A stretch of 64,000 nt of DNA. Source: a virus (Duplodnaviria; Heunggongvirae; Uroviricota; Caudoviricetes). The notes beneath the pieces were generated by a model that saw only the letters and a program-made list of their open reading frames with translations, was not told where the DNA came from and ran no database searches. Made by a program: the position numbers and the translations under genes. The stretch lies in IMG/VR virus record IMGVR_UViG_2718218136_000001; one strand, written 5' to 3'. This document shows positions 2,032 through 58,413 of the stretch, one piece after another (position 1 is the first letter of the stretch; each line of letters starts with the position of its first letter).

Positions 2032-3185
2032 ATGAGCGAATATGTTGAGTTAGCATACGCTGCCGCTACAAGCAGGCTTTGTCTATTTACCGGGACTGGC
2101 TTTTCAAAGGCAGTCTCGAACGGCGAAGCACCAACGTGGAAAGAACTATTAAAAAAAGTTTGCAGCAAAGTTCACAACGCCAAACAGTTGGAAGACACGT
2201 TATTCCCTGATGATAAACCACCAGCACTGAGTCTTGAAGAAGCCGCACAAATACTATCTTTGAAGCTCAACATTGAAGGCAAGTCGATTTATGATGAAAT
2301 TGTTGACATCATATCTCCAATACAACTTGGCGAAGATATATCAAATATAAAGGATTTTTTTCAAAAAAGAACATTTCGTGTCATTACAACGAATTATGAC
2401 AAGTTAGCTGAATACTTAACTGGAGATGAGGAGGTTCAGTCTATTACCCCAGGCTTACCTATTCCTAAATATCCCTCCAAAGTTAAAATATATCATGTCC
2501 ATGGTTCTATTGACTCTCACAAAACATGATTGTTACATCAGAAGACTATTTTAGGTTTATAAACTCCGACACTTATTCTCTCGAAAACTTAGCACGATGC
2601 TGCATGAAAATACAGTTGCGATATTAGGCTATTCTTTAAGCGACACGAACCTAAAAGCAATTATAAATGATTACAAAATATTCTCGAAAGGTAACACTCT
2701 GTGCTCTAATATATTTTTCATCTCTCGCAGTGAAGTAAGTCAAGATATGAAGGATTATTATTTTTATTGTTTTGGAATACGAGTAATTGACAACACCGAA
2801 ATAGACTCTTTCTTTAAGAGATTGAGCATTAACATAATGTTAATTGAAGGCGTCATAGCAAGAGCCAGACAAAGTATAAAAAGAGTTTTATCAGGCACTT
2901 TTAACTATAAGGATGAATACATTAGATTAGAAGATTCATTCTATCAAATAACTTCCTCGATTATATGAGGGTTTCGACTGGAATGACGGACAAGTAGTTG
3001 ATTTTTTCAAGAGAATAATAAAAAAAAAGAGACTTAACAAGAGAGAGTGGTGCTTGGGAGCAATACGAGCAGCTTGCAAAATGGCTTATATATTTCGGCA
3101 GCCTTTAGAAATTGGTGGAACTAAGTATGAAAATGAATATTTAGACGCCGTTGAATACTCAATGTCCAACATGAGCAAAGAATGA
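2032..3185 (+). pseudogene. SIR2-like (sirtuin-family, defence-associated type) protein, reading frame broken at least three times
   Basis: Motifs LFTGTGFS, ITTNYD, HVHGS (frame 1), then IVTSEDYFRF (frame 0, 2526 onward), then ILGYSLSDTNL (frame 2, 2597 onward), then a further frame to stop at 3183-3185; good SD (ggag) 8 nt before ATG 2032; region clearly more AT-rich than flanks by eye. Confidence 0.6.
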
Positions 3186-3381
3186 GATTAGGTTATTCGT
3201 GGCATGCTTATAGAGCTTGGGAAACAAGATGGTCCACAATCATTGCTTCAAATCGATTAATAATAAAAAACGCATCGAAGAAATTGGCGTACTGGAGGAT
3301 GCTAATTCTATAGTAAAAGATATAGTGTAATTGAAGAGCGGCAAAAATTTAACGGGCAGCTACAACTGCCCGATATATAAA

Positions 3382-7000: not shown

Positions 7001-10000
7001 CACCGCATCGGCGTACTCCGGCAGGAAACGATAGGTGATCCGGCGATAGTACAGGTCCATGTCAGTACATACGCGGTCCATATCCCTGATTATTGAGAAG
7101 ATCGGACGGGCTTTCTCGTGCTCAATCACGCCGTCTTCATTGACCGAGGTCGTTACGCCATTGTTGGCTTTGGCCGCCGCTTCCGCCTGCTGACGCAATT
7201 CTTCATACGCCGCCAGTTGTTCTTCAGTAAGTGGTGCATCCTGCTGGTGTTCGTCCAGCTCCGGGATCTCCACGGTATCCTTAACGTCTTCCGCCGTTTT
7301 AAGCGTTACCCAGCGATGGAATATACCGCGCAGCGCATCAAGGTTTTCAAAGCCCACCAGCGCCATTTTCTTCAACTTCACCGCTAATTTTCTGTACCGT
7401 TTCCAGCCTGGTCTTGCCGAAGAATTTAACGAAGTCATCAGGACCGTAGATCCCCATGTTCTGCAGTATTCCTTCGGCAAACATGAGAAAGCATGTTGTA
7501 TGCATCGATCGGGGTGTTAACGACTGGCGTTGCAGTCAGGAGAACCGGCCCGCGCCCGCCATTCTTTTTCATCAGGTACGCGTTTTTAATTGCCATATCT
7601 CGCGCCGATTGCGCCACCGCGCTGGTGGGCAGATAGGCCAGTTGTGACGCTTCGCGACCATTTTTATAGCTATTGCGGTAGTTGTGACCTTCGTCAGCGA
7701 TCACACTATCGAAGCCCATATCCTCAAAGTACGGATACTTCTCTGCTTTTTCGGTGCCGGTATCTGAATACTCCGACAATACCCGGCGACGCGCGGCCTC
7801 TTTGCGGTGGGAGTCGGAGTCCATTGCGCTGGCTACGCGTCCGGCGGCAACGAAGTCATAAAGCATATCCTGTGCATGCTCATCTACGGTGTCATCACGT
7901 AGCGGAATGCGGGCGTATTGTTTTTGGTAAACACGACTGCACGGTAATTTGAGTGCGGATCGCGTTCATCCGCGCCGTGATAGTGGCTTCATCTGCCAGC
8001 TTAAGAGCATCGCGCATAACTGGAGTGCCATCAGTACCAAGAACAGGTTTACCGTTCTCATCGAGCACCGGCACCTGGCGAATCTGATCACCATCCATCA
8101 GCACATCAAGACCGACGAACAGGTAGTTACTGAATGCCTCTTCACTCAGGAATTCTTTTGCTTCGTAATACCAGTTTTCCAGCACTGATTTAGGCACTAC
8201 ATACGCAGTACGGGTGGAGCGACCGTTCTCATAGTTGAACGCCTCAAGCGCCAGCGCGGTCGTGGTTTTACCCAGCCCGGTGCCGAAGCCCAGGATCCGC
8301 GCCCATCTTCGGACAGTCGGCGCACCTCGCTATTCTGGTAATCAAATGGCTGGCGCTTACCGCTTAATCCCTTCAACCCAAGCGGATCGCCAGAGTGTTC
8401 ATACGGGATATTGCTATTGAACACATCGTTGTATTTGGCAACCAGCTCATCGTAGCGATCGTGCGTCTTGATCCACTTATTGAACTGGTCCTCAAGCAGT
8501 GCCATCTGCTCGCGGTAGCCGTTCGCCGTCGCGCTATCTTTGCCACCGATACGCGCACCATTGAGATACTTTTCCAGCTGTGCCGGGAACCCGGTCGCGT
8601 TTTCACCTGATTTACGGTCCCACTGTAGCGGATTCTCGCCTGTTTCTTTATCCTTGCGCTGGACGACACCGTATCGGTGCCCGACGAACAGACCATCACC
8701 ACCGTGATAGGTGTCAGAAACCATTTCGTCGCCTTCCAGCTGCACTGACTGCACATAGCGCAGATCCGGATAGCCGTTTTCCTGCAAAAACTCCAGAATG
8801 ACGGAACGGTCGAACCAACGGCTATTGAGCTTAAACCGGATATTCTCTGCTGGCGTCTTGATGCGCTTCTCTTCGATCGCTGCCAGCTGATTAAGGACGT
8901 TGTTCTTTACTGGACCGTCGGGGAGCGTGGCGAGGAATTCCTGTTTTGGAGCCACTATCTCGTTAATGTCGCCGCTGGTGGCGCGGGCGAACGGAACAAT
9001 CCCGCCATACGGTGAAACCGCAATACCAGGAGTGCTGGCCAATAAATTAAGCAACTCTTCATCACTGGCTGGCAATTCGCCGGTAAACGCAAGGCGGAAA
9101 TCATCGAGCTGGATTGGATCGCGGGTAAGATCGCTATAGAGATAACGCAGGGTGTCCTGATAGCTGGTGGAGTCATAACTGGCGCTGGAATCATGCGTAA
9201 CCAGCTTTCCTGTCAGCTCGTCAGAAATAGTGCCATCCAGCTTAATTGCACCACGGAAAGCAACCAGGCGCGCGCACCGCTTCCCGATAATTAGCTATCG
9301 GACCGCGACCAGGGTTACCAAAACGGTCAATCTCTGCCTGCAAACGGGATACCAGAGAAAGGCGCTGCTGTTCGATTTGTTCAGCACTATGCCCGGCGGC
9401 CTTCATATCCTGATATTCAATTAACATCCGGCCAATCATCGCCCCACGATACAAGCGTTCACGGTATTTTTCAGGCTGGCTGTTAATCCAGTCCACCAGC
9501 GGCACCATATCGTCGCTGATTGATGTGGTGTACTTATCGCGGACATTTGCCATCTGGGTAAATGTCATACCGAGACGGCCTTCTGTTGTAGTCAGGTTAC
9601 GCTGAAGAGCCTCCCAGCTATCCGCGCCATAACTGGCAGCATCAATTTTAAGTTCCTTCCCGGCATCAGCTTCAATCCAGCGACCACCAGCATATTTTGC
9701 CATACGCCATTAATCAGGCGCATTTCCCCTTCACCAACAACGTCTGCGGTCAGTGACGGTTCAGCCATATCGAGCAAAGACCAGTCGATACGGCTTTCGA
9801 AACGATGAATCAGCTTCGCTTTAAGAGCCTGGTTATCAATCTGACCGTCGGCACGAACCTCAATACGCCCCTGGAAGCCCTTTTCCTGGGTGCCATGAAC
9901 AAACCGGCGGCCATCCTTTTCAAACCACTTGCCAGAAATAAACGTTGGCCAAAGCACATTTGCTGATTCAAGAGTGCTTTCATCCACCAGGGAGATTTTC

Positions 10001-49865: not shown

Positions 49866-49882
49866 ATTGCTCTAATAAATAT
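49866..49882. promoter_or_regulatory. C1 operator (ATTGCTCTAATAAATaT, 16/17) upstream of uhr-hrdC-dmt operon
   Basis: Read directly. Confidence 0.55.
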
Positions 49883-50238: not shown

Positions 50239-51136
50239 GCACTGGAAAAATATTACTATTTATAAACTTTCTCGTGAGGCGGATCTGACCGACTTAGAAG
50301 ATAAAAAGAAAATGATCCTTTTCACGCCATGCGGTAGTCAGGATATGGCCAAGTTCGGTTTTGTATCGCCATTTGGTGATAATTCCGAAGTTATCGCTAT
50401 GCATGGAAATGGTTTTATCCTTGTTGAAGCAAAGCGCGAAACAAAAATTCTTCCCCCGCCGGTTATCCAGCGAGCTATTCAAGAAAAAATTGAAAAACTT
50501 GAGCAAGAACAAGCGCGTAAACTGAAGAAAACAGAGAAGGACTCCCTGAAAGACGAAGTTCTGCATTCTCTTCTGCCACGGGCTTTTTCAAAGTTTTCTG
50601 TTATCCAGGCGATCTACGACGGTTCAACTAAACGTATCTATATCAATGCCAGCGCGCGGCAGGCAGAGGATATGCTCGCGCTTATGCGTAAGTCTCTGGG
50701 TTCTCTTCCTGTTGTGCCACTAAGTGTTGAAAATCCCATTGAGTTAACGCTGACCGACTGGGTACGTGATGCTAGTGCTCCACAGGGATTTCAAATGGGG
50801 GATGCGGCAGAACTTAAGGCAGTGCTTGAGGATGGCGGTATCGCCCGAGTGAAAAAGCAGGATTTGGGAAGCGATGAAATTTCCACACACCTGGAAGCTG
50901 GCAAGCTCGTCACTAAGTTGGCACTCGACTGGCAGAACCGCATTAAATTTACACTGGACCATAACTTCAGCATTACCAGCGTCAATTTTGCGGATGAATT
51001 GCTTGAGCAGAACTCTGATATTGATAGTGAAGATGTTGCGCAGCGACTGGACGCAGATTTCTTCCTATTGACCAGTGAAATTTCGTGCCTGGTTGATGCT
51101 CTGGTAAATGCCCTTGGTGGAGAGGCTAAGCAGTGA
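50231..51136 (+). CDS. hrdC: RdgC-family recombination-associated protein (HrdC-like)
   Basis: Close resemblance to RdgC throughout ([44 protein letters not shown]). Confidence 0.8.
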
Positions 51137-54100
51137 AAGAGCTGTGCTATGGATCTGTTTGCAGTGGAATTGAAGCCGCGAGTATTGCCTGGGAACCGTT
51201 GGGTATGCGTCCGGTTTGGTTTGCTGAAATCGAGCCTTTTCCATCGGCCGTTCTTGCGCTCCGCTGGCCCCATGTCGCCAACCTTGGCGACATGACAAAA
51301 CTTGCCAAAAAAGTCTTGGCTGGGGAAATCGAATCCCCTGACGTGCTCGTCGGGGGAACACCATGTTTTACCGCGGGGCATATGGTTCTTTGTAAAAATG
51401 GTTATAAACCAATAGAAGATGTTTGCCCTGGCGATTACGTAGTCAGTCATCTCGGGCGGTTACAACAAGTAAAAAGAGTTGGTTCAAAAATAGCTAATAC
51501 GGGGTTACTTAATGCCGTTGGGCAGCCTTTAGGTATAAGAACAACCAATGACCATCCCTTCCTGGCTGTTCGGTGGAAAGCCCAAAACACCCGGAAAAAT
51601 GGCACATATTTTAAGAGAGAGTTGTTGTCTGAACCGGAATGGCGAGCAGCATGTGATATGCCGGGATATCAATGGTGCGCTCTAACTAATTTCAATATTG
51701 CATCTCCAGATATTTGTTCTCGGTTCTTGTCTGAAGAACAGGCTATGTATCTTGCGGGCGCTTATGTTGGCGATGGATATATTAGGAGATGGAGAGGTAA
51801 ATCTAAGAAGGCGGTTGTTTTTGGCATAAATTGCCAGAAATTGAGAAAGTTTCATTGCCGCATACCAGAAAACATATTTTCCGTGGCAAGCGAAATCCGA
51901 GGGAGCATCAAAGTAACCTTGAATGATACGTGTTATGCCAATTGGCTTAATGAACATTTTGGCGAGTTAAGCCATGCTAAGCGTATCCCTGCATGGGTGA
52001 TGTCGCATCCATTGCGTCATGTGTTTTTACAAGGCTATCTTGATACTGATGGGACACCAAGTGGTAAAGCGGGATTTAGAATTAATAGTGTTAGTCCTGC
52101 GCTTGCTTGGGGCGTTGCGGGGTTGTCACAGACTTGTGGTTATGTTTCTTCGGTCAGCTTTATTGAAGTTGAGCCCAAAAAAGTGATCGAGGATCGCGTG
52201 GTAAATCAACGGAATTATTATCAGGTAACAATCTGCCCGCAGAAATTGTCACGTAAATCAAGATTGGCTCATGGAATGCTTTTACGAACAGTCAAAGAGT
52301 TTAAATCGGTAGGCCTAGATACTGTATACAACATAGAAGTCGAAGGTGATCATTCCTATATCCTCAATGGTGCGGTGGTCCATAACTGTCAGGCATTCAG
52401 TATCGCGGGCTTACGTGGTGGGCTTGATGATGAACGCGGCGCGCTAACTTTGAAGTATGTGGAGCTTGCAAATGCAATTGACGACAAACGGTCTGAGTCC
52501 TTCCTCAAACCGACAGTTATCGTCTGGGAAAATGTCCCAGGAGTCCTGTCATCGGCAGATAACGCCTTCGGATGTTTCCTTGCCGGATTGGCTGGAGAAG
52601 ATGCGCCATTTGAACCAGGTGATCGACCTGAATCAGGAAAAAGTAACGCGTTCTGGCGGTGGGATGGCAAAACCGGTTGCCATGCTCCAAAGTGGCCGCA
52701 GTGTGGTTGTATTTATGGACCGCAGCGAAAGGTGGCCTGGAGAATCCTTGATGCCCAATACTTCGGAGTGGCACAACGACGCCGACGCGTGTTTGTTGTC
52801 GCAAGTGCTCGAACAGACCTCGATCCCGCAACGGTACTTTTTGAGTTCGAAGGCGTGCGTCGGAATATTGCGCCGAGCCGAAAAAAGAAGGAAATCGCTT
52901 CCGCCATTATTGCAAATGGCGCTGCAATCAGTGGCGAAAGCCTAAATCCATGCCTACACGCTGACATGCCACCCGGTATGAAATCGACGAAAGCCGTAAA
53001 CGCTTTCAGGATGGCAGCATTTGGGGAATATATTGACGATGAAACCGCATCGACAGTAAAGGCAAGAGATTTTAAAGATGCCACTGACCTTGCCGTTTTT
53101 AGCAGCACAGGAGCAGGTTTTTGGTCAGAAGGGCATGGTACATTGCGGGCACGTGAGCAAGAAAGCCATGAGCATCTTGTTACATTGGTTTTTCCTGAGC
53201 GTATGAGCGGTACACAACATGCTGAAACTAAGAATACTTCACCATCTCTAATGGCTAAAAATCCAACAGCTGTTTGCTATGAAGTAAGAAACGCAGAAGT
53301 AGCTGTCCGCCGTCTTACCCCTGTCGAATGTGAAAGGCTGCAAGGTTTTCCTGATGGGCATACGTTGATCCCGACGGAAAAGCGTAAAAAAGTTAATTCA
53401 GATGAACTGGCATATCTTCGCAATCACTATCCAGATTTAAGCGAAGAAGAGGCCGCGATGCTTGCAGCTGACGGACCGCGTTACAAAGCGATCGGCAATA
53501 GTATGGCAATACCAGTAATGCGCTGGATTGGCGATCGGATTACTAAGGCCGTATGTCGGCAGAAAGAAGGAAGTGAAACAAAAGAGCGAAAAGTTAAACC
53601 AGCGGCAGAATTCGAACGGTCCATATTCAAATGGGCTGGTGGAAAATTTGGTGTTCTGGAACAAATCTTTCGCTATTTGCCAGAAGGGAAGCGCCTGATC
53701 GAACCTTTTGTCGGTGGCGGAGCTGTCTTCACGAATGCCGGATACCAGGAAAATCTGCTAAATGATGTGAATGCTGACCTGATTAACTTTTACAAGACTC
53801 TGCAACGCGAGGCGCATTCACTTATCACACTGGCGCATCGTTTCTTCCAGGACTACAACACACAGGAAGGATACCTGGCAGTACGGAATGCGTTTAACAA
53901 ACAAGTCTATGATGATTTACATCGCGCAGCGGCGTTTTTGTTCCTGAACCGACATTGTTTTAACGGATTGACGCGTTACAACCAGGCCGGTGAGTTCAAT
54001 GTCGGTTATGGGAAGTATAAAACTCCGTATTTCCCATTACAGGAGATGGAAGCCTTCCTCGGTGCGGAAGGGCGGTCTGAGTTTGTATGCGGTGATTTTG

Positions 54101-54420
54101 CAGCGGTGATTGAAGCTGCCGGAGAAGGAGATGTCATCTTTTGCGATCCGCCGTATGAACCGCTTCCAAATACAGAGGGATTCACGAACTATTCCGGTCA
54201 TGACTTTAAGTTTGAAGAGCAAAAACGCCTGGTGTCTCTGTTGACGGATGCTCATCGCCGAGGTGCAAAGGTTCTCATTACTAACAGTGGCGCGCCAAAC
54301 ATCAGAGAGCTTTATCATGACAATGGCTTCAGAGTGGAACCTCTTTTTGCCAGACGTTCTGTGTCTTGTAAGGGGGACACTCGAGGTGTTGCTCATGACG
54401 CCTTAGGTATATTGCTCTAA
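51133..54420 (+). CDS. dmt: bifunctional DNA methyltransferase Dmt (N-terminal C5-cytosine MTase + C-terminal Dam-like N6-adenine MTase), intein-containing precursor (1095 aa)
   Basis: C5 motifs I (SVCSGIEAA), IV split GGTP|C..intein..|[10 protein letters not shown] (VWENVPG), VIII (QRRRRVFVV), IX-X ([26 protein letters not shown]); Dam motifs [21 protein letters not shown]; GTG start overlaps hrdC stop. Confidence 0.85.
51364..52386 (+). mobile_element. intein (341 aa) with LAGLIDADG homing-endonuclease domain inserted at catalytic Cys of C5-MTase motif IV
   Basis: Begins CFTAGHMVL, block [18 protein letters not shown] motifs [11 protein letters not shown] and [11 protein letters not shown], ends ...GAVVHN followed by +1 Cys; in frame, exteins rejoin to GGTPCQAFS. 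Confidence 0.8.
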
Positions 54421-54428
54421 TAAATTTA
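54412..54428. promoter_or_regulatory. C1 operator (ATTGCTCTAATAAATTT, 17/17 consensus) overlapping dmt stop
   Basis: Read directly. Confidence 0.6.
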
Positions 54429-54601
54429 TTAGTGTAATATCGTCTCAATGAATCGTGATTTATAGAGCGATTTAGCTGTTAGCCGCGACAGGCGCGGCGG
54501 TAAGCATGGCTGGGCCTAGTCCTCCCAGACAAACCACCGAGTTGCCAGGTTGACCATGCGCCTAAGTGGCAACGCCGAAGTGCGTTACGAGCTTCCAGTT
54601 T

Positions 54602-54627
54602 GCCCATCTTCGGGTGGGCGTTTTTTT
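54602..54627 (+). terminator. rho-independent terminator gcccatc-ttcg-ggtgggc followed by gTTTTTTT
   Basis: Hairpin plus U-tract. Confidence 0.6.
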
Positions 54628-55092
54628 CAGGGTTTTCGTCATGGTTAGCGACTTTGCGGCGGTTTAGAAACTGACCATTAAAGTAAATGCAAACGATGAT
54701 CTGATGATGGTAGCGGCCTAAGAAGCCAGACGCCACGGGGTATGAGTCGTCCCCCGTCAAAAAATCGACCGCAGAGTGTCCCCGTCTGTGTATTAGGGAA
54801 CGGGGAGGCACAACAGGTAAGGGCGCTGGTGTGATTAACCAGATGAACGAGAAGGGGCCATCTGTTGGTCAGCGTCCTTTCCTGTTGCGTCTTCTTTTCA
54901 GCGTAACAGCGGTGCTTAACAGCACTGTGGGTACAGTTCCACGAATTTACGGGTATATCCCGTCATGCTGAAAGCGCTAATCACGCTGGAAGCCAGGGTT
55001 ATGCATCCCCTGTTACCGAATTGCAGCCAGGGCGCGGTGCGCCGAAAAGCATACGGAGGTGGAAGCCCTCGCCGGAGACGTACCCGGCAAGT

Positions 55093-55168
55093 GATGGTGT
55101 AGCTCAGCGGTTAGAGCGGTTGACTGTTAATCAACGGGTCGATGGTTCAAATCCATCCACCATCGCCA
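55093..55168 (+). tRNA. tRNA-Asn (anticodon GUU), CCA encoded
   Basis: Cloverleaf folded by hand: 7-bp acceptor stem, anticodon loop CUGUUAA, T-loop GGTTCAAATCC. Confidence 0.85.
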
Positions 55169-55170
55169 AT

Positions 55171-55246
55171 GCTGGTTTAGCTCAGTTGGTAGAGCGCCTG
55201 CCTTGTAAGCAGGATGTCAGCGGTTCGAGTCCGTTAACCGGCACCA
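55171..55246 (+). tRNA. tRNA-Thr (anticodon UGU), CCA encoded
   Basis: Cloverleaf by hand: anticodon loop CUUGUAA, T-loop GGTTCGAGTCC. Confidence 0.85.
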
Positions 55247-55977
55247 GCACAACAGGTAAGGGTATTTTGCGACGTCGGAGATCGCCGAGCTTGGCAGAGG
55301 GTTCGAATCCCTACGAAGTGCCCTTACCGTTGTGATGAAGTGCAGCTCTTTGAAGCAACCAGAAGATAAGCATCTGGCTTCACAACATAAACCGCAGGAA
55401 CGACCAATAAACGGTAGTCCGTATGGAGAACACCCCGTTGAGGAAGAGGCCTGGCCGGAACCGTAACCGGCACTACAACGTTGAGAACACTGGCGTAACG
55501 GGGTCATATCCCAATCTACGAATAAATGTTGCGTTGCAGCGTGACAACCAGTGTTCTCAACATTGTGGTGAATGCACAGGCTGATGTGCCGCAACTACAG
55601 TAGTGCGCGCTTTGCGGGGCTTGCTATAACCCTGTGTCGGAGTTCAGCACCGATCATCACAGTTTGATTCTCTGGCATGAGCATAACGCTGAAATAAGTC
55701 CAGTCTGGTGCGGCCCGATCACCCGCCGTTAGCTCCACGAAACGGAGCACGTAACAGGTAAGAGCATTCTCCTGTAACGGGTTCATATCCCAATCTACAG
55801 GTCCACCAGGAATGCTCTTTCCGTTGCGGTGAATGCGGCTAAGCGCACGCGGAACAGTTAAAACAATCCTCCTTAATGGTTAAACATTCCGGCGTTAATT
55901 GTTAACTGGTTAACGTCACCGGGAGGCACTCGGCACCGCAATCTAATAAATATGTCACTTTTATTGAGGGATAACCA

Positions 55978-56412
55978 ATGTTCGGTAAATTGTTCGGCAA
56001 GAAAGTCGCTTCTGCAAAAGTAGAGCTGAAAAAAGTTGAGAATCGAGATCTGATGGAGGCCATCATCGGTGGCTGTTTGTTGGTATCTGCCGCTGATGGT
56101 GAAATCGAAAAAGAAGAAACAGCGAAACTTGATCAGCTTGTCCGCTCTAATCCGCGTCTTAGTCATTTTGGTAACGAAATTACTGCAACAATTACCCGCT
56201 TTACCGAGCAACTGGAAGCTGGCTTCCGTGTTGGTCGCATGAATATCCTTCGCGAAATTGAAGATATCAAAAACGATCCAAAAGAAGCGGAAGAAGTATT
56301 CGTTAACATGCTGACAATTGCAGAAGCGGACGGTGAAATCGAGCCAGCAGAACACAAAGTACTGGAAGAAGTAGGCCGTCGTTTAGGTCTTCGTGTGGAA
56401 GATTATCTGTAA
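55978..56412 (+). CDS. TerB-like tellurite-resistance-family protein (144 aa)
   Basis: Duplicated SAADGEIEKEE / AEADGEIEPAEH motifs typical of TerB fold. Confidence 0.6.
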   Translation: MFGKLFGKKVASAKVELKKVENRDLMEAIIGGCLLVSAADGEIEKEETAKLDQLVRSNPRLSHFGNEITATITRFTEQLEAGFRVGRMNILREIEDIKNDPKEAEEVFVNMLTIAEADGEIEPAEHKVLEEVGRRLGLRVEDYL

Positions 56413-56576
56413 TGGCAAGCAAGGCACGTATCGCAATCGCCATTGGTTTTCTCTTGCTGTCCGTGCTGGTGGATTTCACCAGCACAATCCTGTCAGTTTT
56501 ATCGGACGGGGCGTTGGTGGCAGTAGCTGTAACATTGGTATGGCCGATATTAAAAACAGCTTCTAAGGATCAGTGA
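56412..56576 (+). CDS. small membrane protein (54 aa), translationally coupled (TAATG)
   Basis: Hand translation MASKARIAIAIGFLLLSVLVDF...; below ORF-track cutoff. Confidence 0.4.
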   Translation: MASKARIAIAIGFLLLSVLVDFTSTILSVLSDGALVAVAVTLVWPILKTASKDQ

Positions 56577-56683
56577 TGGGCTTCTGGGATTTTGCTGACA
56601 AGCATCCAATTGTTCTCGTTGTCATTGCTGGCATAGTTGTAGGCGGTATTGCTGGCGTCATAGAAGCACTCAGGAAACAGTAA
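56576..56683 (+). CDS. small membrane protein (35 aa), translationally coupled (TGATG)
   Basis: Hand translation MGFWDFADKHPIVLVVIAGIVVGGIAGVIEALRKQ. Confidence 0.35.
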   Translation: MGFWDFADKHPIVLVVIAGIVVGGIAGVIEALRKQ

Positions 56684-56686
56684 TCC

Positions 56687-56762
56687 GGCCCTTTAGCTCA
56701 GTGGTTAGAGCTGGCGACTCATAATCGCACGGTCACCGGTTCAAGTCCGGTAGGGGCCACCA
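56687..56762 (+). tRNA. tRNA-Ile2-like (anticodon CAU), CCA encoded
   Basis: Close resemblance to enterobacterial ileX-type tRNA; anticodon loop CUCAUAA. Confidence 0.8.
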
Positions 56763-57048
56763 TATTTGGTTGTAACACGGCGTCTGGCACATGCGTCGTT
56801 AGCGGTCTGGTGACGTTAAAAGGGGGGAACCTTGCCCCTAGCTCAGGCAACGAACCAGGTAGCCGGAATGTGCAAGCCACCGTTTGTTGTTTCTCGGGTA
56901 AAGGGATTCACCATCCTGGCGATTCGGTGTGACAGCCGGGAAGAGTCCGGCGCATTAATCCTGATTTTCTGGTGATGACTCATATCGTTAGGAGTGATTT
57001 GAGTATGCCGATTATATCTGACATTCAGCACGCCTGGGTGGAGTGCTA

Positions 57049-58413
57049 ATGTCTGCATCCCCTCTTGAATCCATGCCAAATTCCCTTAGTGCAGAACAAG
57101 CTATACTTGGTGGCTTAATGCTTGATAACTGCCGCTGGGATGAAGTTGCAGATCGTATAGTTGCTGATGATTTTTATACCAGTGCTCATCGTGAAATTTT
57201 CAGTGAGATGGAGAGGTTATTAAGTCATGGCAAACCGATTGATTTGATAACACTTGCTGAAGCACTTGAACAGAACGGTAAATTAGAACGCGCCGGTGGT
57301 TTTGCGTACCTTGCGGAGATGTCAAAGAACACGCCCAGCGCGGCAAATATTTGTGCTTATGCGGATATCGTTCGTGAACGCGCGGTTGTTCGTGAAATGA
57401 TTTCCGTCGCAAATGAAATAGCCGAAGCTGGATATGCGCAGGATGGCAGGGGCAGCAATGAATTGCTGGATATGGCCGAGCGCCGCGTTTTTGAAATAGC
57501 TGAAAAACGACAAAAGAGCGGTAGTGGTCCAAAAGATATCGCCAGCATTCTCGATGCAACGGTATCTCGCATAGAAGAGTTGTTTCAGCGACCACATGAT
57601 AGTGTAACGGGGCTTGATACGGGATTTACCGATCTCAATAAGAAGACGGCAGGGCTTCAGCCGTCCGATCTCATCATTGTCGCCGCCCGCCCATCTATGG
57701 GGAAGACCACGTTTGCGATGAATCTCGTCGAAAATGCCGCAGTTCGTAACGATAAGCCCGTATTGGTTTTTAGCCTTGAGATGCCGAGCCACCAGCTGAT
57801 GATGCGCTCACTGGCTTCTCTTGCACGCGTTGATCAGACTCGTATTCGGACAGGGCAACTTAACGACGAGGATTGGGCGCGGGTTTCTGGCGCAATGGGT
57901 ATTCTGTTGGACAAGCAGAATATTTTTATTGATGACTCAAGCGCCCTGACACCTACAGAGCTTCGTTCCCGCGCTCGTCGTGTTTATAAAGAAAATGGTG
58001 GTTTGAGCATGATTATGATCGACTACCTGCAACTTATGCGCGTCCCCGAGCTGCAAGATAACCGAACGCTGGAAATTGCCGAGATTTCTCGCTCACTGAA
58101 GGCTTTGGCGAAGGAATTACAAGTACCGGTGGTGGCATTGTCACAACTTAATCGATCGCTTGAACAGCGTGCGGACAAACGACCGGTAAATTCAGATTTA
58201 CGTGAATCAGGAGCAATTGAGCAGGACGCAGACCTGATCATGTTTCTGTATCGCGACGAAGTTTATCACCCGGATAGCGAAATGAAGGGCATTGCCGAGG
58301 TGATTATCGGTAAGCAACGAAATGGCCCAATTGGCACGGTGAGATTGGCTTTTAACGGCCAATACTCACGGTTTGATAACTATGCTGGTGCTGACTGGCA
58401 AGAGGATTATTAA
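57049..58413 (+). CDS. ban: replicative DNA helicase, DnaB family (Ban-like)
   Basis: DnaB N-terminal domain, Walker A PSMGKTTFAM, Walker B IMIDYLQLM, arginine finger region. Confidence 0.85.
   Translation: MSASPLESMPNSLSAEQAILGGLMLDNCRWDEVADRIVADDFYTSAHREIFSEMERLLSHGKPIDLITLAEALEQNGKLERAGGFAYLAEMSKNTPSAANICAYADIVRERAVVREMISVANEIAEAGYAQDGRGSNELLDMAERRVFEIAEKRQKSGSGPKDIASILDATVSRIEELFQRPHDSVTGLDTGFTDLNKKTAGLQPSDLIIVAARPSMGKTTFAMNLVENAAVRNDKPVLVFSLEMPSHQLMMRSLASLARVDQTRIRTGQLNDEDWARVSGAMGILLDKQNIFIDDSSALTPTELRSRARRVYKENGGLSMIMIDYLQLMRVPELQDNRTLEIAEISRSLKALAKELQVPVVALSQLNRSLEQRADKRPVNSDLRESGAIEQDADLIMFLYRDEVYHPDSEMKGIAEVIIGKQRNGPIGTVRLAFNGQYSRFDNYAGADWQEDY

What the first reader, a model, noticed from the sequence alone, without database searches (positions are those of the whole stretch)
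54412..54627. Operator-controlled short transcript with no ORF between dmt and the tRNA cluster
A perfect 17/17 C1 operator overlaps the dmt stop and a -10-like TAATAT lies just downstream. About 180 nt later comes a canonical intrinsic terminator (54602-54627). The interval has only very short ORFs, so it may encode a repressor-controlled small RNA or leader.
Basis: seen in the sequence. Interest (0 to 1): 0.5.

Follow-up and report, generated by a model that had tools for sequence, protein, structure and literature searches.

The report
P1 ban-operon leader, DicF-precursor homolog
The repressor-controlled, ORF-free stretch after dmt is the already-annotated start of phage P1's ban operon, and its roughly 180-nt first segment matches the structured front half of the 190-nt "long DicF" RNA of E. 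coli prophages, a conserved RNA domain that is not in Rfam 15 and for which I found no description or assigned function.

Summary
A perfect C1 operator lies at 54411-54427. It is overlapped by a second, inverted operator at 54422-54438. A TAATAT -10 lies at 54435-54440, and a strong intrinsic terminator at 54601-54627. The stretch between has no credible ORF.

The locus is not new. In P1 (98.5% identical) it is annotated as operator Op72a/b, promoters P1ban/P2ban and a "dicF-like region", which is the start of the ban operon.

The new finding concerns the homology. It is not to the 53-nt DicF, since Rfam gives no DicF hit. It is to a ~93-nt domain (54482-54574) that sits just upstream of DicF in Qin-type prophages, inside the experimentally known 190-nt long DicF RNA. 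This domain occurs in 4427 of 5426 complete E. coli genomes and is absent from Rfam. Two of its helices covary clearly. A further helix and a pseudoknot have weaker support. In every copy examined a terminator follows within about 100 nt, while the sequence in between varies (DicF or at least 8 other cassette types).

Best reading: after C1 is lifted, Pban makes a ~181-nt early RNA, the P1 analogue of long DicF. Read-through transcripts continue into the tRNAs, tciABC and ban. What the conserved domain does is unknown. It is not a member of the put antiterminator family, although a put-like mechanism is not excluded.

The parts
54411..54427 (+). C1 operator Op72a (Obana), a 17/17 match to the consensus. 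It overlaps the dmt stop codon.
   Evidence: Annotated in P1 AF234172 at the equivalent position (L001 coordinate = window coordinate - 51799).
54422..54438 (-). C1 operator Op72b (Obanb), a 15/17 match. It overlaps Op72a to form the bipartite 28-bp operator.
54412..54440 (+). Sigma-70 promoter P1ban: -35 TTGCTC at 54412-54417, 17-nt spacer, -10 TAATAT at 54435-54440. The predicted P2ban has its -35 at 54395-54400 and its -10 at 54421-54426.
   Evidence: Sequence; annotation transferred from AF234172. The generic consensus scan did not flag it.
54447..54627 (+). Predicted primary transcript of about 181 nt. It runs from the inferred start (A at 54447/54448, 7-8 nt after the -10) to the end of the T run. 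It is the analogue of the 190-nt long DicF RNA.
   Evidence: Inferred. The length matches the 190-nt species reported in PMC10448788. Not tested experimentally for P1.
54449..54474 (+). P1-specific 5' hairpin (UGAAUCGU...GCGAUUUA).
   Evidence: -7 kcal/mol, z -1.9. Conserved only in P1-type copies. Weak evidence.
54482..54574 (+). Conserved ~93-nt structured domain, the 5' domain of long DicF. Its elements are: hairpin A, 54483-87 with 54493-97; helix B, 54498-01 with 54536-39; pseudoknot helix D, 54504-09 with 54554-59; variable hairpin C, 54510-14 with 54524-28, with a pyrimidine-rich loop; helix E, 54541-47 with 54567-73.
   Evidence: Covariance model R1 scores 86.3 bits, E 1.4e-16. The segment is 77-80% identical to the Qin ydfC-dicF spacer. 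Pair counts: 96.2% of cells paired, 6 pairs with compensatory changes, 0 of 500 shuffles as good. B and C were also recovered by RNAalifold. D and E rest on one compensatory pair each, and an alternative pairing of that part is not excluded.
54575..54600 (+). Linker between the domain and the terminator (CCGAAGUGCGUUACGAGCUUCCAGUU). It occupies the place where DicF's seed lies in Qin, but it is unrelated to DicF and is poorly conserved among P1/D6-type relatives.
   Evidence: No DicF (RF00039) hit at E up to 10.
54601..54627 (+). Intrinsic terminator: 8-bp stem with a UUCG loop, then U7. It divides transcripts into the short RNA and read-through into the ban operon. D6 shares it but lacks the domain.
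55825..55940 (+). Second block of homology to the Qin dicF-dicB spacer (dicB 5' leader, STnc100-like), lying upstream of tciA. It shows that the P1 ban leader is a dicF-dicB-type intergenic region split by about 1.25 kb that carries the tRNA genes.
   Evidence: blastn gives 79-81% identity to L002 3195-3318 and L003 3199-3322. Rfam STnc100 scores 43 bits against a gathering score of 47.

Best explanation
The interval is the promoter-proximal leader of the P1-type ban operon.

How it is controlled and made:
- In the lysogen, C1 occupies the bipartite operator Op72a/b, which lies over promoter P1ban. This is established knowledge for P1, carried over here by 98.5% identity.
- When C1 is lifted, RNA polymerase starts near 54447. 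After about 181 nt it meets a strong intrinsic terminator.
- Transcripts that stop there give a short non-coding early RNA. Transcripts that read through continue into tRNA-Asn/Thr, tciABC, tRNA-Ile and ban. The terminator therefore works as a partition point, or attenuator.

What the short RNA is:
- It is the P1 counterpart of the 190-nt 'long DicF' RNA of lambdoid prophages.
- It shares that RNA's conserved, compactly folded 5' domain (54482-54574; two covarying helices plus a probable loop-loop pseudoknot).
- It shares the same layout: domain, then a short variable stretch, then a terminator hairpin with a U tail.
- It does not contain DicF.
- In P1 the 5' end comes from transcription initiation. 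In Qin it comes from RNase III cleavage.

Inferred function. The conserved domain is itself the functional core. It is a self-contained structured RNA, probably a binding site for a protein or another RNA, and it uses whatever terminator lies downstream as its 3' end and Hfq handle. DicF and the other 3' cassettes would then be separate passengers on the same transcript. The partner of the domain is unknown.

Shown here: the operator, promoter and terminator sequences, the homology, the covariation and the constant association with a terminator.
Inferred: the discrete P1 transcript, partial read-through, and the autonomy of the domain.
For: The perfect operator and its overlapping partner are far beyond chance. 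The locus is 98.5% identical to P1, where Op72ab, P1ban/P2ban and a 'dicF-like region' are annotated. The terminator was found by the scan and is conserved in P1, P7 and D6.

The segment 54483-54577 is 77-80% identical to the ydfC-dicF spacer of Qin-type prophages in 4427 of 5426 E. coli genomes. In the K-12-like locus L002 the domain (3000-3094) lies 27 nt upstream of DicF (3122-3173, Rfam 76.7 bits).

PMC10448788 reports a 190-nt DicF species whose 5' end is made by RNase III and which ends at the DicF terminator. Counting 190 nt back from that 3' end lands about 11 nt before the domain, so the long form is the domain plus DicF. [quoted passage not shown]

Structure: 96.2% of cells paired, 6 pairs with compensatory changes, slid controls 31-55% paired.

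In 155 instances (57 distinct downstream sequences, at least 9 cassette types) a terminator follows the domain. The automatic scan placed it 43-90 nt downstream in 53 of the 57; the other 4 were identified by eye, the furthest at about 100 nt.

The linker is not conserved in P1/D6-type relatives. A D6-like plasmid has the domain inserted only about 17 nt in front of the same terminator. This points to the domain, not a seed, as the conserved unit.

There is no coding signal (1-nt insertions or deletions among close copies).
Against: I found no direct evidence that a discrete ~181-nt RNA accumulates from P1. The one P1 RNA-seq paper I searched does not mention it. The efficiency of the terminator in vivo is unknown.

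The fold of the 184-nt stretch is only marginally more stable than shuffles (z -1.7).

Diversity is low: almost all copies come from Escherichia or Shigella. Helices D and E each rest on what may be a single evolutionary event, and RNAalifold proposes a different pairing for that part.

Phage D6 has the same terminator and downstream operon without the domain, so the domain is dispensable for the basic layout of the operon.

The autonomy of the domain and its binding partner are pure inference.
Confidence: 0.6

Rival explanations
1. The conserved domain is a cis-acting processive antitermination RNA. It would work like HK022 put or the Bacillus EAR element: it folds on the nascent transcript, stays with RNA polymerase, and lets it pass the adjacent terminator and later intrinsic or Rho-dependent terminators in long early operons.
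For: The position fits.
- In P1 the domain starts 35 nt after the start site, upstream of a strong terminator and about 1.5 kb of untranslated RNA before tciA.
- In lambdoid phages where no N-like gene is annotated or evident in the stretches examined (cdtI, an IMG/VR relative L142, Salmonella phage F1055), it lies in the pL leader before a terminator and the early-left genes. HK022 and HK639 carry putL at that position.
- The topology is two stem-loop arms joined by one unpaired base, with invariant loop bases. This recalls the original two-stem description of put (PMC9378689).
- Ban is known to be expressed from Pban, so the terminator must be passed.
Against: Model R1 finds nothing in the HK022 or HK639 put regions, and the putL sequences are unlike the domain.

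In K-12 the transcript that ends at the DicF terminator (1,146 nt) is a band seen in wild-type cells. The read-through species accumulated only when RNase E was inactivated (PMC10448788). Termination next to the domain is therefore substantial.

D6 keeps the same terminator and operon without the domain. No second copy was seen in the pR operon of L142.
Confidence: 0.18
2. The domain is only a carrier or maturation platform. As a stable 5' structure, it would protect the precursor and present the linker to RNase E and Hfq, so that the attached 3' small RNA (DicF or another cassette) is released. It would have no function of its own.
For: It always sits directly upstream of a cassette that ends in a terminator. 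In K-12 the 190-nt form accumulates when RNase E is inactivated, and the 53-nt form needs RNase E. The upstream interval is Hfq-enriched, which the authors interpreted as Hfq binding the full-length transcript and taking part in its processing. In lambdoid copies a closing helix around the domain covaries (GUUGUGGY with RCYRCAAC) and coincides with the RNase III-made 5' end.
Against: A simple hairpin would be enough for protection. Here the loop bases are invariant and the fold is complex.

In P1/D6-type copies the linker is short (17-30 nt), is not conserved, and has no recognisable seed. In P1 there is therefore little to carry.

The domain is more conserved than the cassettes it would serve.
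Confidence: 0.15
3. The RNA is a DicF-like antisense regulator that blocks ftsZ translation and cell division. This is what the label 'dicF-like region' in the P1 record suggests.
For: The GenBank annotation. The surrounding context is linked to cell division: tciA is annotated for tellurite or colicin resistance or inhibition of cell division by homology, and a dicB-leader-like block lies upstream of tciA.
Against: There is no match to the DicF covariance model, even at E up to 10 on a 191-nt search. The homology lies upstream of DicF, not in it. Predicted pairing of the P1 3' part with the ftsZ translation start region is no better than for shuffled sequences. That test also failed to single out true DicF, so it is uninformative. 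The linker is not conserved among relatives.
Confidence: 0.05
4. The segment is a recombination remnant with no present function in P1. A piece of a lambdoid dicBF operon would have been captured by a P1 ancestor. The terminator would merely insulate the ban operon from dmt read-through or trim promoter output.
For: The ban leader is clearly mosaic. Two blocks homologous to the Qin dicF-dicB spacer are separated by about 1.25 kb. D6 lacks the domain and a D6-like plasmid has it inserted. This shows gain and loss as a discrete module.
Against: The domain is kept intact in 610 plasmid records, 474 of which cover at least 80% of the 200-nt query. Helices are maintained by compensatory changes between P1-type, P7-type and Qin-type copies, while hairpin C diverges freely. 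That pattern indicates selection on the RNA fold.
Confidence: 0.08

Closest known systems
P1 Op72a/b (Obanab), P1ban/P2ban and the 'dicF-like region' of the ban operon (GenBank AF234172 / NC_005856)
   Same: The sequence is the same (98.5% identity over 54300-55300). So are the bipartite operator, the promoter hexamers, the position between dmt and tRNA-Asn, and the terminator.
   Different: The dmt gene of this window carries an intein that P1 lacks. The annotated 'dicF-like region' (equivalent to 54535-54636) is offset from the real block of homology to Qin (54483-54577), and that block does not include DicF.
The 190-nt 'long DicF' RNA of the Qin dicBF operon (Faubladier et al. 1990, as cited in PMC10448788 and PMC4152368)
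   Same: The 5' domain is homologous (R1 scores 86 bits in the window and 118 bits in Qin). The order is the same: domain, variable stretch, terminator hairpin with a U tail. The lengths are similar (about 181 and 190 nt). In both cases the promoter is controlled by the phage repressor (C1 at Pban, DicA at dicBp).
   Different: The 3' part is not DicF. The 5' end is set by transcription initiation, not by RNase III cleavage of a polycistronic RNA. The closing helix around the domain seen in lambdoid copies is not evident in P1. No AU-rich RNase E site like the one before DicF is present. The only candidate, AG/UUU, lies right at the foot of the terminator (read from the sequence).
DicF sRNA (Rfam RF00039)
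   Same: It occupies the same relative position, between the conserved domain and the poly-U of a terminator. It is Hfq-type in layout.
   Different: There is no sequence or covariance-model similarity. The DicF 5' seed (UUUCUGGUGA) is absent.
HK022 / HK639 put antiterminator RNAs
   Same: It is a promoter-proximal structured RNA in repressor-controlled early operons of phages where no N-like gene was seen. It has two stem-loop arms joined by one base and is followed by terminators that must be passed.
   Different: The sequence is unrelated and the model finds no match. It has an extra 5' hairpin and a probable loop-loop pseudoknot. No functional data exist. Termination next to the domain is substantial in K-12.
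5'-leader or attenuator-derived small RNAs ('parallel transcriptional output', reviewed in PMC9438474)
   Same: One promoter gives both a short terminated RNA and a longer operon transcript.
   Different: Here the short RNA carries a domain conserved across unrelated operons and phage types, not an operon-specific leader.

Membership tests
P1 C1-controlled operator-promoter Op72ab/Pban | A 17-bp asymmetric C1 site matching ATTGCTCTAATAAATTT. | tested here: met
   17/17 at 54411-54427. Operator-like sites are enriched in the window (8 against 0.28 expected).
P1 C1-controlled operator-promoter Op72ab/Pban | Bipartite form: a second, overlapping site in inverted orientation. | tested here: met
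   15/17 on the - strand at 54422-54438. Matches Obanb in AF234172.
P1 C1-controlled operator-promoter Op72ab/Pban | The operator lies over sigma-70 promoter hexamers, located between dmt and trnA. | tested here: met
   -35 at 54412-17 and -10 at 54435-40. dmt ends at 54420 and tRNA-Asn starts at 55093.
P1 C1-controlled operator-promoter Op72ab/Pban | C1 binding and repression of transcription. | not testable with these tools
   Taken from the P1 record annotation and established P1 literature.
Long (190-nt) DicF-type RNA: 5' domain | Homology of the ~95-nt domain upstream of DicF. | tested here: met
   R1 scores 86.3 bits, E 1.4e-16, at 54482-54574, and 118 bits in Qin. blastn gives 77-80% identity.
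Long (190-nt) DicF-type RNA: 5' domain | A conserved secondary structure kept by compensatory changes. | tested here: met
   Helices B and C are supported in two independent analyses. D and E have one compensatory pair each and remain provisional.
Long (190-nt) DicF-type RNA: 5' domain | An intrinsic terminator follows within about 100 nt, giving an RNA of about 150-190 nt. | tested here: met
   In the window the terminator's T run ends 53 nt after the domain. All 57 distinct downstream sequences examined have one.
Long (190-nt) DicF-type RNA: 5' domain | The RNA accumulates in vivo, and its 5' end is made by RNase III. | not testable with these tools
   Shown for K-12 in PMC10448788. For P1 the 5' end is predicted to be the transcription start. 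No data.
DicF sRNA (RF00039) | A match to the DicF covariance model (gathering score 48 bits), with the 5' seed and hairpin. | tested here: not met
   No hit at E up to 1 over 53500-57500, nor at E up to 10 over 54445-54635. The same search gives 76.7 bits in Qin.
DicF sRNA (RF00039) | Base pairing with the ftsZ translation start region. | tested here: inconclusive
   Duplex energies are no better than for shuffles. The test did not separate true DicF from shuffles either.
put antiterminator RNA (HK022/HK639) | Sequence and structure similarity to putL/putR. | tested here: not met
   No R1 match in the HK022 region (E up to 1) or the HK639 put region (best 6 bits, elsewhere). The putL sequences read are unlike the domain.
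put antiterminator RNA (HK022/HK639) | Factor-independent read-through of downstream terminators that depends on the beta' zinc-binding domain. | not testable with these tools
   Needs in vitro transcription or reporter assays.
RfaH ops element | The non-template motif GGCGGTAGnnTG, with T6 and G8 essential (consensus recalled from memory). | tested here: not met
   The window has GGCGGTAAGCATGG, with A in place of G8. In P7-type copies the T is replaced by C, together with a compensating A-to-G change in its RNA pairing partner. Selection is therefore on the RNA helix, not on a DNA motif.
Known riboswitch, ribozyme or other Rfam families | A match to any of 4227 Rfam 15 models. | tested here: not met
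   Only chance-level hits to the 3' ends of terminator-type small RNAs (RyhB 15.8 bits, AgvB 13.3 bits, and others).

The most novel reading that the evidence does not exclude
The ~93-nt domain (54482-54574) is a previously unrecognised class of phage cis-acting RNA. It would reprogram the transcribing RNA polymerase, or recruit a host or phage factor to it, in the repressor-controlled early operons of P1-type phages and of lambdoid phages that appear to lack N. That would make it a second, structurally unrelated solution to the job done by HK022 put. The adjacent terminator-ended cassettes (DicF and at least 8 others) would ride on the same leader.
Probability: 0.15. Interest if true: 0.85.

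Novelty: new variant of a known kind. Interest (0 to 1): 0.5.

Why it matters
The useful result is what the old label 'dicF-like' really refers to.

- It points to a conserved, structured ~93-nt RNA domain, not to DicF.
- The domain forms the front half of the 190-nt long DicF RNA.
- It is present in about four of five complete E. coli genomes, often in several copies, and in P1-type plasmid prophages.
- It is absent from Rfam, and the DicF literature I read treats this stretch only as precursor.
- It is conserved better than the small RNAs that follow it, and a terminator always comes next.
- It sits in the first RNA made when a prophage is derepressed.

If it has its own function, such as control of the polymerase, a protein-binding site or a decoy, that would revise how the dicBF operon, the early-left operons of lambdoid phages that appear to lack N, and the P1 ban operon are understood. 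P1 offers the cleanest test system, because there the RNA is a primary transcript from a single, well-characterised, heat-inducible (c1ts) promoter.

Tried and rejected
1. DicF membership of the P1 RNA. Rejected: there is no RF00039 hit even in a narrow, permissive search.
2. Any other Rfam family. Nothing above chance.
3. put family. Model R1 finds no match in HK022 or HK639, and the put sequences are unlike the domain. Membership is rejected. The functional analogy is kept as a rival.
4. RfaH ops motif (GGCGGTA is shared). Rejected: position 8 differs, and the T covaries with an RNA partner.
5. ftsZ as a target of the P1 3' part. Duplex energies are not better than for shuffles. The same test does not pick out true DicF, so it is uninformative.
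6. Protein coding on either strand. There are no Pfam hits for the 110-aa antisense ORF or the 32-33-aa sense ORFs. Frequent close variants of the core differ by 1 nt in length.
7. A riboswitch-like switch in which part of the domain pairs with one strand of the terminator. By eye, no complementarity holds across cassette types. Terminator stems change (GGCGG, GGUGG, GCCCAUC) without matching changes in the domain.
8. Pairing between the hairpin C loop and the following linker. It is possible in Qin-type copies (UCCUU with GAGGA) but absent in P1-type copies, so it is not conserved.
9. Long-range stems that would enclose the whole module and serve as RNase III sites. They are visible in Qin and F1055 but are not better than shuffles in the energy test, and they are absent in P1.
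10. A search for more distant relatives. The species-representative genome scan recovered the element (8 Qin-type copies, 4 P1-type or P7-type, and 1 degenerate Qin-type copy in L131) in Escherichia and Shigella records and in four MAG contigs labelled as unrelated taxa, which are probably contamination; 3 further hits were chance matches. The most distant useful copies came from a Salmonella phage and P1/D6-type plasmids.
11. The Lobocka 2004 P1 genome paper (PMC523184) is not held in the library, so the authors' reasoning for 'dicF-like' could not be read.
Full report
**1. The observation**

The window is a P1-type phage or plasmid prophage. The stretch 54300-55300 is 98.5% identical to P1 AF234172.

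The consensus C1 operator ATTGCTCTAATAAATTT matches perfectly at 54411-54427 and overlaps the dmt stop codon at 54418-54420. The window holds 8 operator-like sites at up to 3 mismatches, against 0.28 expected.

TAATAT lies at 54435-54440. The terminator has a stem at 54601-54620 with a UUCG loop, followed by seven T to 54627.

Only very short + strand ORFs (24-33 aa) and one 110-aa antisense ORF touch the interval, and none has a Pfam hit. The description is therefore confirmed, apart from a one-base correction to the operator start.

**2. What is already known about the locus**

The P1 record annotates these same bases as follows:
- the bipartite operator Obanab (formerly Op72a/b), which 'controls expression of ban';
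- the sigma-70 promoter P1ban, plus a predicted P2ban;
- a 'dicF-like region', equivalent to window 54535-54636.

Downstream come tRNA-Asn (55093), tRNA-Thr (55171), the tciA-type ORF (55978-56412, with short ORFs at the tciB/tciC positions), a third tRNA (56687) and ban (57043). The interval is thus the promoter-proximal leader of the ban operon, not an orphan unit.

I could not read the 2004 P1 genome paper. Two P1 RNA-seq papers turned up in the search, and the one I searched for these terms does not mention this RNA.

**3. What 'dicF-like' really is**

Rfam finds no DicF in the window, even in a 191-nt search at E up to 10.

A distant DNA search instead shows that 54483-54577 is 77-80% identical to a segment present in 4427 of 5426 complete E. 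coli genomes, with a median of 2 copies, and with no annotated feature under it in any of the rows listed. In a K-12-like genome this segment lies in the ydfC-dicB spacer of the Qin prophage. The order there is: element at L002 3000-3094, DicF at 3122-3173 (76.7 bits), then the dicB leader, which resembles Rfam STnc100.

The homology is therefore to the sequence upstream of DicF. A second block, window 55825-55940, is 79-81% identical to the dicB leader (STnc100 43 bits). The P1 ban leader thus looks like a dicF-dicB-type intergenic region split by about 1.25 kb that carries the tRNA genes.

**4. Link to a known RNA**

PMC10448788 reports, citing Faubladier et al. 1990, that DicF exists in two forms. 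The 53-nt form has a 5' end made by RNase E. The 190-nt form has a 5' end made by RNase III. Both are detected in K-12, and the long form accumulates when RNase E is inactivated.

Counting 190 nt back from the DicF 3' end in L002 gives about position 2989, which is 11 nt before the conserved element. The long form is therefore the element plus DicF.

[quoted passage not shown] From the predicted P1ban start (about 54447) to the end of the T run is 181 nt. The P1 primary transcript therefore has the same size and layout as long DicF, with initiation taking the place of RNase III cleavage.

**5. Structure of the conserved domain**

I collected copies from IMG/VR with two sequence patterns, from species-representative genomes, from plasmids and from phages. 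From 22 diverse copies I built covariance model R1 and used it to realign 51 hits.

On that alignment a five-helix model gives 96.2% paired cells. Six pairs show compensatory changes, 0 of 500 shuffles do as well, and slid controls reach only 31-55%. The five helices are:
- hairpin A;
- helix B, which encloses hairpin C;
- the variable hairpin C;
- helix E;
- helix D, a pseudoknot between the B/C internal loop and the E loop.

RNAalifold recovers B and C independently but pairs the 3' part differently. That alternative shows no compensatory change. In my model D has U-A, U-G and C-G, and E has U-A and C-G. Each rests on few events, so I treat B and C as solid and D and E as provisional.

Loop bases such as CAGGUUGACCAU and AAG are invariant. 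Hairpin C varies freely but keeps a pyrimidine-rich loop. Frequent close variants differ by single-base insertions or deletions, which excludes coding. In lambdoid copies a closing helix (GUUGUGGY with RCYRCAAC) covaries and coincides with the RNase III-made end. P1 lacks it.

**6. Context rules**

In 155 instances, comprising 57 distinct downstream sequences, an intrinsic terminator follows the domain. The automatic scan placed it 43-90 nt downstream in 53 of the 57. The other 4 were identified by eye, the furthest at about 100 nt.

The sequence in between falls into at least 9 unrelated or diverged cassette types: DicF, several DicF-like variants with other 5' sequences, and the P1 type.

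The domain occurs in four settings:
- inside the Qin dicBF operon;
- in the pL leader of lambdoid phages with no N-like gene annotated or evident in the stretches examined, namely cdtI, an IMG/VR relative (L142) and Salmonella phage F1055;
- right after Pban in P1 and P7;
- inserted about 17 nt in front of the same terminator in a D6-like plasmid.

D6 itself has the terminator and the downstream operon but no domain. Wherever the promoter could be identified (Pban, dicBp, the pL-type promoters of cdtI, L142 and F1055), it is the repressor-controlled early promoter.

**7. Mechanism**

Shown: the operator, promoter and terminator, the homology, the fold and the terminator rule.

Inferred: on derepression Pban makes a ~181-nt terminated RNA, and a read-through fraction serves the tRNAs, tciABC and ban.

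Among P1/D6-type copies the linker in the seed position is short and not conserved, whereas the domain is kept by compensatory change. I therefore favour the view that the domain itself is the functional core and merely uses the downstream terminator as its 3' end.

The rivals are as follows:
- **A put-like or EAR-like antiterminator.** The position in early leaders of phages that appear to lack N favours it. Against it are the lack of any similarity to put, the substantial termination at the DicF terminator in K-12, and the fact that D6 does without the domain.
- **A pure maturation platform.** It fits Qin and fits P1 poorly.
- **A true DicF-like ftsZ regulator.** I found no support.
- **A functionless recombination scar.** Purifying and compensatory evolution argue against it.

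**8. Verdict**

The locus is already annotated in P1.

The added value is the recognition of a widespread, uncatalogued structured RNA domain shared by the P1 ban leader and long DicF. Its function is open, and P1 would be a convenient system for testing it.

Noticed in passing
window 51133-54420 (+): The dmt ORF is 1095 aa, against 754 aa in P1. Pfam finds Hint_2 (residues 77-126), LAGLIDADG_3 (298-361) and Intein_splicing (135-418) inserted after the 'GGTPC' motif of the C5-methylase part. This indicates an intein with a homing endonuclease inside the bifunctional Dmt methyltransferase.
   Followed up: partly
window 54802-54896 and 55245-55335 (+): Two very stable long hairpins flank the tRNA-Asn/tRNA-Thr pair (-48.8 kcal/mol, z -5.8; and -42.7 kcal/mol, z -5.1). 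Both begin with CACAACAGGUAAGGG. The second contains a T-arm-like GGGUUCGAAUCCC and looks like a tRNA-like element with a stem of about 25 bp. They may be processing sites, for example for RNase III, that release the tRNAs.
   Followed up: partly
window 55217-55594 (-): The ORF that corresponds to P1 'plp' (putative lipoprotein) overlaps the 3' end of tRNA-Thr and lies antisense to the tRNA-like hairpin. It has no Pfam hit. The gene call may be spurious.
   Followed up: no
window 55825-55940 (+): This block is 79-81% identical to the dicB 5' leader of Qin-type prophages and falls just below the Rfam STnc100 gathering score (43 against 47 bits). It lies upstream of tciA. STnc100 may be a conserved leader of prophage genes linked to cell-division inhibition, not a free-standing small RNA.
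   Followed up: partly
window 54640-55092 (+): The roughly 450 nt between the terminator and tRNA-Asn are non-coding and shared with D6. The whole 646-nt leader folds far better than shuffles (z -3.8). No Rfam family matches it.
   Followed up: no
window 482, 2700, 10772, 34169, 35830, 49866 (+): There are further C1 operator-like sites with 1-3 mismatches. The best are 35830-35846 and 49866-49882 (1 mismatch each) and 34169-34185 (2 mismatches). They presumably correspond to other known P1 operators.
   Followed up: no
window 7892-7984 (+): ARAGORN calls a 93-nt tRNA-Thr (GGT) here, which is unusually long. I did not check it against the P1 annotation or Rfam. It may be a false positive or a tRNA-like structure.
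   Followed up: no
L133, L135, L137, L138 (genome-contig hits): MAG contigs labelled Bacillota, Veillonella parvula, Proteobacteria and Collinsella carry P1-type or Qin-type copies of the element. Three are identical over the ~100 nt compared to copies in Escherichia loci; the fourth (L137) differs at two positions. This is most likely E. coli or P1 contamination or mis-binning in those assemblies.
   Followed up: no
L002 2970-2999 with 3200-3225; L174 2476-2497 with 2696-2716: In lambdoid copies, the sequence just upstream of the domain can pair with sequence just downstream of the cassette terminator (for example GUGCUCUCUUCGUUGUGG with ACACAACAGAAAAGAGCAU in F1055). That stem would enclose the whole module and could explain the RNase III-dependent ends of DicF species. 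The energy test against shuffles was not significant.
   Followed up: partly
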